Notes: generated by a model not told the origin, from the sequence alone. A DNA stretch of 64,000 nt from Tubiluchus corallicola (GCA_030141605.1 JAQGDQ010000593.1:62001-126000), one strand, 5' to 3'; shown: positions 42,101 to 45,100, counted from the stretch's first letter. Numbers and translations are program-made.

Positions 42101-45100
42101 TACAAAGGTCAGTCTTAATATCACGATACACAATATGCACAAATTTTACTATCACACCTTGTGGAATTATTATTCGCTAGAACGTTCTACTATCTGGTAC
42201 AAGTTTACGTGCTTGAAAATAAAATAAAGCATAAGACCATTTTGTATGCTGTTTGTATGATATTTTTGATAGACAATATAAATTAGCCACTTCGGTTTTT
42301 CTGCTACCTGACTAAAAGATTACAGTGTGAAGAGTATTTGATTGTTGATATGGAAAGAATCGAGGAACTTATTCACAGTGTGTCAGACGCTGAACAAAAA
42401 TTGGAACTCGAGTCGTTACTATATGCTTACCAATTTGTTCTTATATTTGGTGAAGATGGAACAGAGTTGCTCAACAAGCTGCTACATGCTGCAACACGCT
42501 TTAACATGCATGAGCTTGTTCATGAACTTCTCGAAAGAGGAGCAGAAATGGAAAGTGTAACCTATGAGGGAGTAACCCCCCTTGAAACTGCATGTTATTT
42601 GGGACATACTTTTCTTGCACAGCAACTCATTGAACGGGGTGCTGAAATAAACTGTCTTTCTAGAAGCAATGGATGGTCGCCTTTAACATTAGCAGCTTCA
42701 CAGGGACATACAGAAATTTGTGAAATGCTGTTGGCTCATGGAGCAGAAGTTGATGGCTTCCCAGAAAAGCGTAAAATACGACCTATACAGTTTGCATCGT
42801 GGGCAGACCACACTGAAATAGTGAAGCTGTTAATTAAATATGGCGCCAAAATTGATGAACATCCTTACATTTCGGTTGATGGTTATCCGCCCCTCCATGC
42901 TGCAGCAATTCATGGGCACTTTGGAACCCTTGTTTATCTGCTTCTCAACGGTGCAGATGTCTTCTACCTAGACAACACAACAGGTGATACCGCTCTGCAT
43001 TGGGCAGCAAGGCAAGGACGTGTTCATTGTGCAGCAGTTCTGATTTTTGAGGGCTCTGACATTCTGGCAGAAAATAATCAGGGTTGGACCCCACTCACCC
43101 TAGCATGTATGAAAGGTAGACTGGATGTTCTTAAATTAATATAAGAAAATGTGCAAGATACGTATTCAGGCGAAGTAGTAAGGCAGATAGTAAATAAACT
43201 TTACAATGGAGGAAGTCTAATTCATCTGGCTTGTTATAATGCTCACTCGTCAGCTCAAAGTGTAGACGTTGTTAAATACCTCATTGATGTAGAAGTTCAG
43301 ACCGAAATGTTAAATGAATCCCACGAAACGGCTTATGATATGTGCATCCGACAAGCTTACGAAAAGGCACTGAACAGAAATTACAAACAAATTGCAGGAC
43401 TTTTTCTTTCTTATCGGTACTTTCAAATGTGGCAAAAAAAGTCTTCAAAGTTTTCTGTCACAGAAGATAATGAAACAGTGTCAGAGCTTTCTGTCACAGG
43501 GGATGATAAAACTGTGTCAAAAAACATTTGTGGATTGCCTCTAAAGGACTTGGTTTCCGAGCCTGGATTAGGAACAATTTCAAATATAAAAGAATTTGAC
43601 TACATTAGAAAAAATATAAAGGAATTGTTAGGTGCTGTTAGCAGAATTGTTTACGAAAATCATCACATAAGATTTGTGCCCATACTTGTTGGCAGTTCAG
43701 CTTGTGGAGTAAAGATTGGCCAGCCAGATGAGTTTGATTTTTTTGTTGTGGTACAACTGCACGGAGATTTCACAGCAGATTTACGAAAATTAAAGGAGAT
43801 GTTTTCCCAATACTTGTGCGAAGCCGTGGCAACAGCTTTGCAAGAAGAGAAATTTAAAGAAAAAATGGTGCCAAACAGCTTTCCACATGTAGTGGAATGG
43901 AATAAAGTCTGTACATGTTTGAAATTATGTGTTCTGTTGCCAAACAAAAAAATAGCACAAGTCTCTGTAGATGTGACACCATGTGCTGAAGAAGAGGGAG
44001 TACCAAAGAATGCCAATGATAAATGGCCAGAGGATGTCAACAGTTATCACTACGTCCTCAAACCAGACGAATCAAAAACAAAAGTTGAACCCACATTTGC
44101 TGTTGCTGAATGTGAATTTATAAAGAACTTAGACAACAACCGTAAGATGGTGTTGATCCTCATAAAGGTGCTAGTAAAGCCTGTCCTGTATTCTTGCAAC
44201 AAAGAAATACATTTATATCCCAGTCAGGTTCCTTCAACATTCCACACCGGTTTGGTCAGTGCAGATGTCAACTTGCCAGAAGTATACAGAGCAATAAAGT
44301 ATCAACCAGATAAGGTCATTGACTCTTACATGTTAAAAGTGGCCTTCTTGCATGAAGTGGTGACCACTAAAGATGACTGGGGCACAGAAAACTTGAAAGC
44401 TCGAGCTGTCTCTATATTCCAGTACATTGGGGACTGTTGCCGAGAAGGCGCAATGTTTCACCCACTGCTAAATGATGTCAATATCTTAGAAGATCTAAAA
44501 CATAAAGAAATGAGTGGCATTCCATTGTTAACATTGGCAGAAGACGCAGCACATGCTATAGCCAGCAAATTAGATATTGATGCGATACCATCAAATGAAG
44601 GTCTAATGGAACCAGATTTTGAAAAGTACCATGCTATGCTAAAAACACATGCAGCAAATCAGGCGGAAGCAAGATGGGCCAAGACACAAATTGAGAGAAT
44701 TGATTTGTATTTAAGAAACGTTTGGGATTGGATCGAAGAAAGTGATAAGAAACAGCAAAGTGCATCTTAGAAATGCATTAGTCATTTGGTTAAATCTAGT
44801 CATCAGAAATCCAATGGTTTAATAAGTATTACACGAATTCTAAGCAAATATTTGTATTTGGGAACTCAATGTACAGTATCACTTGTATGAAATCGGCTTA
44901 TACAGAAAATTTCAACTGTCCAGGCATAACACTCTGATATACTTTGGCCTCAGGTATATTCTATTTTTAAGCAGAAATTCCTGTTGGAATTTGAGACGAC
45001 CTTAATTTATCCTTGATTGATCGGTTGGTTTTTCCTGGAACTCTGTACAGCAGACAGTTCTCTTGGGCTGCAGCAAACAGGCAATAAATAAAATAATGTG

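What the first reader, a model, noticed from the sequence alone, without database searches (positions are those of the whole stretch)
42350..44770. Intronless ankyrin-repeat + cGAS-like (cGLR/Mab-21) nucleotidyltransferase nested antisense in a PIGW intron
Seen: a 2.4-kb intronless frame with about 8 ankyrin repeats followed by hGS-x-K-x-PDEFD, a third acidic residue (VSVDV) and Mab-21 C-lobe motifs ([18 protein letters not shown]). It lies on the strand opposite PIGW, inside intron 39798-48654, while both neighbouring genes are intron-rich. Known: cGLRs are animal pattern-recognition enzymes that make cyclic dinucleotides for STING signalling, and ankyrin-fused forms occur in invertebrates. 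Inference: this is a recently inserted, lineage-specific innate-immune receptor whose ankyrin array may sense a protein ligand rather than nucleic acid. The usual GSxxEG glutamate is a Cys here (GSSACG).
Basis: partly seen in the sequence, partly recalled or inferred. Interest (0 to 1): 0.9.

Follow-up and report, generated by a model that had tools for sequence, protein, structure and literature searches.

The report
cGAS-like immune gene inside a transposon
This is a copy, broken by a stop codon, of an ankyrin-repeat cGAS-like gene that is predicted to act as an immune sensor and likely exists in several copies; it sits between the two ends of a jumping DNA element that likely carried it into an intron of a housekeeping gene, which would be a new route for multiplying such sensors.

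Summary
The ankyrin + cGAS-like (cGLR) gene is real and lies antisense in a PIGW intron, but the frame is not open: a TAA at 43142-43144 splits it into 264 + 541 codons. All 19 contigs listed at that base, from four runs (two samples), read Tyr, so the stop looks private to this haplotype or assembly. The C-terminal domain folds as a cGLR (pLDDT 87; Cv-cGLR1 Z 23.4, rmsd 2.9, 288 aligned) and keeps the catalytic E461/D463/D541. The Cys in GSSACG is a subfamily trait (0 of 11 rows have Glu), not decay. The ankyrin fusion is old: relatives at 25-52% identity include four Priapulus caudatus proteins. Contig depth and diversity point to several to about twenty copies. And the gene sits in a 5.5-kb unit (39874-45357) bounded by TTAA and imperfect piggyBac-type inverted ends, whose arms are halves of an abundant MITE. 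Best reading: a Pack-TIR-like element carrying a whole, acidic, probably non-nucleic-acid-sensing cGLR. Transposition of the composite is inferred; no second locus or empty site could be read. Ankyrin-cGLRs are known; a transposon-borne family was not found in my searches.

The parts
39870..39873 (.). TTAA target site, left
   Evidence: sequence; loose ends of 46/32 contigs (X1/X2) show varied flanks before TTAACTCCTTCAGGACCG
39874..39886 (+). left terminal inverted repeat CTCCTTCTGGACC (12/13 to the family end at 24398-24410, 8/13 to the right end)
39874..40925 (+). left arm: 5' part of an abundant TTAA MITE, with no right end of its own
   Evidence: X1 depth bins 11,000-154,000 vs about 270 at the PIGW exon; no inner TIR at up to 2 mismatches
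39950..40482 (.). about 533-bp nested insertion in the left arm; ends look hAT-like (label recalled)
   Evidence: many contigs join about 39950 to about 40483 (table 5); ends printed
40657..40925 (+). MITE-internal segment duplicated on both sides of the cargo (84% to 44888-45164)
41103..41730 (.). higher-copy repeat of unknown kind between the left arm and the gene (bounds approximate)
   Evidence: depth and loose ends; no Pfam or Rfam hit
41968..42349 (+). upstream non-coding flank shared with other gene copies
   Evidence: X1 depth about 3,100, like the CDS; 5-6 contigs with other letters at 42068 and 42272
42350..43141 (+). ankyrin-repeat part, codons 1-264 (7 Pfam Ank stretches)
43142..43144 (+). 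premature TAA (codon 265); Tyr codon in every contig listed at this base
43145..43537 (+). last ankyrin-like repeats, conserved helix ([11 protein letters not shown]) and linker with a 36-bp tandem duplication at 43445-43521; first Met after the stop is codon 320 (43307)
43538..44770 (+). cGLR/Mab-21-fold nucleotidyltransferase domain: G448-S449, K455, E461, D463, WNKVC 517-521, D541, K606, S659-Y660, K663
44867..45357 (+). right arm: 3' part of the same MITE family, with no left end of its own, starting 96 bp after the stop codon
   Evidence: loose ends at 44867 in all four runs; 84-87% matches to the MITE copy at 23490-24414
45345..45357 (-). right terminal inverted repeat, reading CCCTTTTAGCACC inwards
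45358..45361 (.). TTAA target site, right
   Evidence: contigs X2 45285-45502 and X4 45318-45493 bridge the end into unique flank
39798..48654 (-). host PIGW (GWT1) intron, GT-AG, phase 0

Best explanation
The locus is an intronless ankyrin-repeat cGLR gene, broken here by one premature stop, that likely belongs to a multi-copy family and lies between the two arms of a TTAA (piggyBac-type) MITE, which likely captured it and carried it into the PIGW intron; intact copies are predicted to make a cyclic dinucleotide, likely when the ankyrin array binds a non-nucleic-acid ligand. Shown: the stop, the domains, the catalytic triad, the TTAA and inverted ends, and the absence of inner ends. Predicted by model: the cGLR fold. 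Inferred: copy number (from contig depth and diversity); capture by template switching inside a MITE, which would leave the 270-bp internal duplication on both sides; movement by a transposase encoded elsewhere; signalling to STING (from family knowledge, Li et al.); ankyrin-mediated sensing. This haplotype's copy most likely yields only a truncated ankyrin protein, making it a young loss-of-function allele in a birth-and-death family.
For: Fold: AF2 pLDDT 87.3, pTM 0.88; Foldseek top hit Cv-cGLR1 E 8.6e-10; VIA Z 23.4, rmsd 2.9, 288 aligned to Cv-cGLR1, then Tc-cGLR 21.1, Sp-cGLR1 20.4, mouse cGAS 20.1. E461, D463, D541, K606, S659, Y660 and K663 are invariant in 11 of 11 aligned rows. Stop: at 43144 all laid depth reads T in all four runs (6, 6, 2 and 5 contigs), including an X3 contig with a single difference over 43051-43202. 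The homologue P0002 is an intact 800-aa ORF with His there. Copies: the PIGW exon is covered by two X1 contigs of depth 88.9 and 125.6 (bin 273), whereas CDS bins are 3,176-6,819 in X1, and 76-217 vs 17.7 in X2; up to 14 X1 contigs carry one alternative letter. Listed CDS indels keep the frame in 6 of 7 events (table 4; 38 rows not shown). Element: TTAA plus inverted ends at 39870 and 45361, none inside. An X4 contig of depth 46.7 runs from the CDS end (44727) into the right arm (44999), against 4.7 for the X4 contig at the unique right junction, which suggests several copies share the gene-arm junction. Depth at 41026 and 41095 (X1 about 3,000) matches the CDS. Ligand: pI 5.46; 1 of 11 family domains exceeds 8.5 (criterion).
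Against: No second locus with both ends and no empty-site joint was seen (one search lists 15 of 234 joints; no genome held). Every piggyBac-type MITE ends in TTAA, so the two TTAA sites do not prove one insertion. The two inverted ends match at only 8 of 13 bases, and the left one starts CTCC rather than CC[C/T]T. A rearranged, right-end-only copy of the same MITE lies at 23490-24414, so partial copies occur without cargo. The search pattern was built from these ends, so its excess over shuffles is not independent. The tool warns that summed depth is no copy number; depth at 41884 is only about 4 times single-copy. The runs are two samples and not the assembled individual (best word share 0.53), so an assembly error at 43144 is not excluded. 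The Mab-21 NTase profile is below cut-off. Catalysis and ligand are untested, and pI across the family ranges from 5.5 to 8.6.
Confidence: 0.5

Rival explanations
1. Same gene family, but the composite never moved as a unit. The gene was copied into a resident MITE by gap-filling repair, or two decayed MITE halves landed beside it, and the other copies arose by tandem or segmental duplication.
For: Most animal Pack-TIRs are single-copy and transposition-independent; only four multicopy cases in 100 genomes (PMC8277862). The ends are mismatched 8/13. A partial MITE copy occurs elsewhere in the window. No transposase in 17 flanking ORFs tested.
Against: The arms are complementary halves in the right orientation with no inner ends; the right arm starts 96 bp after the stop codon. 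The gene-arm junction appears shared by several copies (X4 depth 46.7 vs 4.7). No second copy lies in this 64-kb window.
Confidence: 0.33
2. The TAA is an assembly error (or a collapse of copies) and the gene at this locus is intact. This is independent of how the gene got there.
For: No contig listed at 43144 in four runs carries the A. Window-specific changes are 6 synonymous and 8 non-synonymous, against 78% non-synonymous at random (p 0.06; tool-selected rows), so the copy is not long dead.
Against: The assembled individual is not among the runs, and allelic divergence is high (7 differences in 148 bases between PIGW exon haplotypes), so private alleles are expected. Two other private changes replace glycines found in all other copies (D153, E315). 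Other copies carry deletions (42223-42620, 44112-44253), so broken members exist.
Confidence: 0.25
3. Intact members sense nucleic acid like most characterised cGLRs, or are non-immune Mab-21-fold enzymes, and the ankyrins only scaffold or localise them.
For: 9 of 15 active cGLRs respond to dsDNA or dsRNA. MiD49 (Z 19.5), MB21D2 (18.9) and MAB21L1 (17.9) share the fold. Three family domains have pI 7.8-8.6.
Against: The window's domain is acidic (pI 5.46). Complete catalytic triad. Multi-copy, variable family: 23 of 25 listed mixed sites are non-synonymous, many in the ankyrin repeats (p 0.07 against neutral; selected rows).
Confidence: 0.3
4. The gene is an mRNA-derived retrocopy, which would explain the lack of introns.
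For: Intronless, between intron-containing neighbours; flanked by a 270-bp direct repeat.
Against: Longest A run between the CDS and the right arm is 3. At least 380 bp of upstream flank is shared among copies. The direct repeat is an internal MITE segment, not an LTR. The intron state of the relatives is unknown.
Confidence: 0.07
5. The stop converts the locus into a stand-alone cGLR, by re-initiation at Met320 or by a tiny intron that removes the stop.
For: Met320 (43307) would give the whole NTase domain; a 30-nt GT-AG stretch (43116-43145) would remove the stop in frame. 87% of cGLRs are stand-alone.
Against: The 30-nt intron is very short and would delete an ankyrin helix. Re-initiation after a 264-codon ORF is inefficient (own knowledge). 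The allele was not seen in the two other samples.
Confidence: 0.05

Closest known systems
Animal cGLRs, including ANK-fused forms (Li et al., bioRxiv 10.1101/2023.02.22.529553; passages and section 6 read)
   Same: cGLR fold, GS-x11-EFD-x75-VD catalytic layout, ankyrin fusion, multi-gene expansion, acidic members proposed to sense non-nucleic-acid ligands
   Different: Divergent subfamily (16-19% structural identity to solved cGLRs; invariant WNKVC; VGS instead of [QT]GS; Cys/Asn/Ser instead of Glu). This copy has a stop. The text has 0 hits for 'transpos' or 'priapul'; its tables were not seen.
Priapulus caudatus uncharacterised proteins XP_014670921.1, XP_014668761.1, XP_014675828.1, XP_014661479.1
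   Same: Ankyrin array plus the same NTase motifs
   Different: Only 25-27% identical over the alignment and on a separate branch; genomic context unknown; unnamed functionally
Pack-TIRs, especially multicopy Ssk-FB4 (Tan et al. 2021, PMC8277862; abstract, passages and section 7 read)
   Same: Near-whole gene with upstream flank inside a non-autonomous TIR element, multicopy, polymorphic
   Different: TTAA/piggyBac-type ends ('piggybac' occurs 0 times in that main text); cargo is a pattern-recognition enzyme; parent locus and transposition not shown here
piggyBac-type TTAA MITEs such as coral CMITEs (PMC2872659; passages read)
   Same: TTAA target, about 13-bp ends, asymmetric ends in some families, internal rearrangement
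   Different: CMITEs are about 100 bp with no cargo; the left end here starts CTCC, not CC[C/T]T

Membership tests
cGLR (Li et al. criteria) | Catalytic acidic triad [DE]h[DE]h X50-90 h[DE]h, with GS 8-20 residues before it | tested here: met
   GS, 11 residues, EFDF, 75 residues, VDV; invariant in 11 of 11 rows
cGLR (Li et al. criteria) | h[QT]GS: Gln or Thr before GS | tested here: inconclusive
   Literally not matched: Val here and in 10 of 11 rows. But the active Sp-cGLR1 chain 8gjy has Lys there (HKGS), so the position does not decide membership
cGLR (Li et al. criteria) | Homology over both the NTase core and the C-terminal helical bundle | tested here: met
   Mab-21_C above cut-off; Mab-21 below cut-off for this protein but above it in P0004, P0005, P0008; structural alignment spans model residues 1-349
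cGLR (Li et al. criteria) | Predicted structure matches cGLR/CD-NTase | tested here: met
cGLR (Li et al. criteria) | Ligand-dependent synthesis of a nucleotide second messenger | not testable with these tools
   needs biochemistry
Intact ANK-cGLR gene (this copy) | One open frame joining ankyrins and NTase | tested here: not met
   TAA at 43142-43144; met by homologue P0002
piggyBac-type non-autonomous element | TTAA at both ends | tested here: met
piggyBac-type non-autonomous element | 12-19-bp TIRs with terminal CC[C/T]T (PMC2872659) | tested here: inconclusive
   Right end CCCT fits; left end CTCC does not; pair matches 8/13; the MITE family's own ends (39874, 24410) match 12/13
Multicopy Pack-TIR | Host sequence between the two arms of one TIR element | tested here: met
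   arms 39874-40925 and 44867-45357, no inner ends
Multicopy Pack-TIR | Same composite at several loci with own target sites, empty alleles and an identifiable parent | tested here: inconclusive
   Depth and one bridging contig suggest a shared gene-arm junction; no second locus or empty site readable; no genome
Retrocopy | Poly(A) tail and ends at transcript limits | tested here: not met
   longest A run 3; upstream flank shared among copies

The most novel reading that the evidence does not exclude
A piggyBac-type non-autonomous DNA transposon has captured a complete ankyrin-cGLR pattern-recognition gene and is dispersing it through an invertebrate genome, producing a family of about 10-20 receptors that diversify in their ankyrin surfaces and turn over by birth and death; they belong to an uncharacterised WNKVC subfamily that senses proteins rather than nucleic acids.
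Probability: 0.35. Interest if true: 0.82.

Novelty: new variant of a known kind. Interest (0 to 1): 0.55.

Why it matters
Invertebrates carry tens to hundreds of cGLRs (Li et al.), and how these genes multiply, and what the acidic and ankyrin-fused ones sense, is open. A whole cGLR riding in a cut-and-paste element would give a concrete, testable route for that expansion, and would add a rare multicopy animal Pack-TIR with an immune cargo. The intact relatives are candidates for finding non-nucleic-acid cGLR ligands. If the transposon reading fails, what remains is an ordinary broken copy of a known architecture.

Tried and rejected
No whole genome is held, so paralogues and synteny could not be read. 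No RNA holder listed: nothing follows on expression. No related loci in viral contigs or metagenome contigs. The end pattern gave 22 metagenome loci, none matching the element beyond about 40 bases around the pattern: chance. No Rfam hit in 39800-45500. No transposase hit in 17 ORFs from the arms and flanks, nor in 2 other long ORFs. The PDB profile search with alignment A3 was swamped by ankyrins; a 43-aa motif query found nothing. A word search from P0004 found only itself. One PIGW exon did not resolve the phylum: best named hits 63-68% over the full exon, across hemichordate, mollusc and cnidarian proteins. Earlier-findings look-ups were empty. A complex prediction of ankyrin array against NTase domain was never queued: no verdict. 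The sigma-70 scan is irrelevant to an animal. An alternative genetic code was rejected: the neighbouring exons read normally and other copies have Tyr at the stop. An X3 contig begins exactly at the right TTAA (45358), as an empty allele would cause, but an X2 contig of the same sample crosses it unbroken: not used. Literature: cGLR+ankyrin, cGLR+transposon+expansion (4 listings, none on capture by title or abstract start), Pack-TIR, piggyBac+passenger gene, cGAS/Priapulus/Mab-21, priapulid+cGAS. None showed a transposon-borne cGLR; most subscription papers are outside this library.

Full report
Observation. The + strand from 42350 encodes ankyrin repeats followed by a Mab-21-like domain, antisense within a PIGW intron. 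Five of five PIGW exon-bearing ORFs match GWT1 in profile order, three above the curated cut-off, and 39798-48654 has GT-AG ends in phase 0. The upstream neighbour is RNF220. The frame is not open: TAA at 43142-43144 (codon 265) splits it into 264 and 541 codons. Pfam finds 7 Ank stretches before the stop, and Mab-21_C above cut-off but the Mab-21 NTase below cut-off (E 0.27) after it. The host is an invertebrate of undetermined phylum.

The stop. Contigs of four public runs (two samples, two studies; none looks like the source individual, best word share 0.53) were laid on the locus. At 43144 all laid depth reads T, giving Tyr, in 6, 6, 2 and 5 contigs. One X3 contig differs from the window at a single base over 43051-43202, and its depth equals the depth reading T there, so a near-identical copy is open. 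Of 39 CDS sites taken from the tool's displayed rows (a selected subset of several hundred), 14 differ from at least 85% of laid depth in every run that covers them: 6 synonymous and 8 non-synonymous, including the stop and two lost glycines (p 0.06 against neutral). I read this as a young loss-of-function allele (about 70%), with an assembly error not excluded.

The protein. An AF2 model of the C-terminal 410 residues (13-row alignment) has pLDDT 87.3. Foldseek's top hit is Cv-cGLR1 (E 8.6e-10). VIA gives Z 23.4, rmsd 2.9, 288 aligned for Cv-cGLR1, then Tc-cGLR, Sp-cGLR1 and cGAS. The ESM Atlas agrees (Mab-21 clusters, 0.95). A search of 1.84 billion representatives gave 14 hits. All 11 hits over 600 aa carry ankyrins, 8 of these also hit Mab-21 or Mab-21_C at E up to 0.01, and 3 hits are short fragments without ankyrin hits. 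Of 11 looked up, 4 are Priapulus caudatus uncharacterised proteins and 7 are unnamed Logan proteins. In an alignment of the window's protein with 10 of them (P0015 and the fragments left out), G448, S449, K455, E461, D463, D541, K606, S659, Y660, K663 and a WNKVC motif are invariant. The position that is Glu in Sp-cGLR1 and cGAS is Cys in 4, Asn in 6 and Ser in 1 row: a subfamily trait outside the acidic triad. The closest relative, P0002 (800 aa, 52%), is intact and shares the start Met, so no coding intron is needed; its full-length model has pTM 0.76. The tree puts the window's protein with P0002, apart from the P. caudatus group. The architecture is therefore old. The window's NTase domain has pI 5.46; Li et al. 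report pI above 8.5 for nucleic-acid sensors and propose other ligands for acidic ones.

Copy number. In X1 the PIGW exon is covered by two contigs (depth 88.9 and 125.6; bin 273), whereas CDS bins are 3,176-6,819; in X2, 17.7 against 76-217. Up to 14 contigs carry one alternative letter at a CDS site. The tool warns that summed depth is no copy number, so I say only 'several to about twenty'. Six of seven displayed CDS indel events keep the frame, and some copies have large deletions. Of 25 displayed mixed sites 23 are non-synonymous, many in the ankyrins (not significant, p 0.07, selected rows).

The element. Loose ends of dozens of contigs show an abundant repeat whose left end is TTAA followed by CTCCTTCAGGACCG, at 39870. 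The window has TTAA plus an inward CCCTTTTAGCACC at 45361-45345, and a rearranged right-end-only copy of the family at 23490-24414 whose end matches the left end 12/13. Between 39887 and 45344 there is no further end at up to 2 mismatches. The left arm runs to 40925 and the right arm starts at 44867, 96 bp after the stop codon; a 270-bp internal segment is present in both (84%). An X4 contig of depth 46.7 crosses from the CDS into the right arm, ten times the depth of the X4 contig at the unique right junction. The right junction is present in both other samples, and a 533-bp insert is nested in the left arm, so this insertion is not brand new. No transposase remnant was found. TTAA and short inverted ends are piggyBac hallmarks (PMC2872659), though the pair here matches only 8/13 and the left end lacks CC[C/T]T.

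Mechanism. Most likely a template switch inside a MITE captured the gene with its upstream flank, leaving the internal duplication, and a transposase from elsewhere moved the composite, as proposed for multicopy Pack-TIRs such as Ssk-FB4 (PMC8277862). Intact copies would bind a ligand through the variable ankyrin array, activate the NTase and make a cyclic dinucleotide for STING. Capture, movement, ligand and product are all inferred. The main rival is transposition-independent gap filling or segmental duplication, the commoner route in animals.

Novelty and verdict. Ankyrin-fused cGLRs and cGLR expansions are described. My searches found no transposon-borne cGLR and no description of this subfamily (listings only, except the papers cited by identifier); the supplementary tables of Li et al. 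were not seen and may list the P. caudatus proteins. The multi-copy, TIR-bounded state is the real lead. Novelty: new variant of a known kind. Interest 0.55.

Noticed in passing
window 23490-24414: Rearranged copy of the same TTAA MITE family with two right ends and no left end, apparently in an RNF220 intron.
   Followed up: partly
window 39950-40482: About 533-bp nested insertion skipped by many contigs; ends TAGCGATG and CATCACTA look hAT-like (label recalled).
   Followed up: partly
window 41103-41730: Higher-copy repeat of unknown kind between the left arm and the start codon; no Pfam or Rfam hit.
   Followed up: partly
window 43688-43696: The family's LVGS loop matches two cGAS chains, 7lz3 (LLVGS) and 7kxs (LFVGS). 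I recall these as designed constitutively active cGAS variants; a review confirms such designs exist (PMC12934549, passages) but does not name these entries. It may hint at a pre-ordered active loop held in check by the ankyrins.
   Followed up: partly
window 42223-42620 and 44112-44253: Other copies in sample S1 carry deletions here, one removing the start codon (table 5).
   Followed up: no
window 23123-23242: RNF220 exon on the + strand (Pfam PF15926, E 5e-13).
   Followed up: partly
window 47942-48255: Assembly gap of 314 N in the same PIGW intron, next to a microsatellite.
   Followed up: no
window 14606-15205 and 52446-53129: Long ORFs that look like LINE reverse-transcriptase tails by eye (recalled); no Pfam hit above E 0.06.
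   Followed up: partly
window 22510-22900: Degenerate TAACCC telomere-like array.
   Followed up: no
window 39651-39798: Two PIGW exon haplotypes in sample S1 differ from the window at 0 and 7 of 148 bases, showing high heterozygosity.
   Followed up: no
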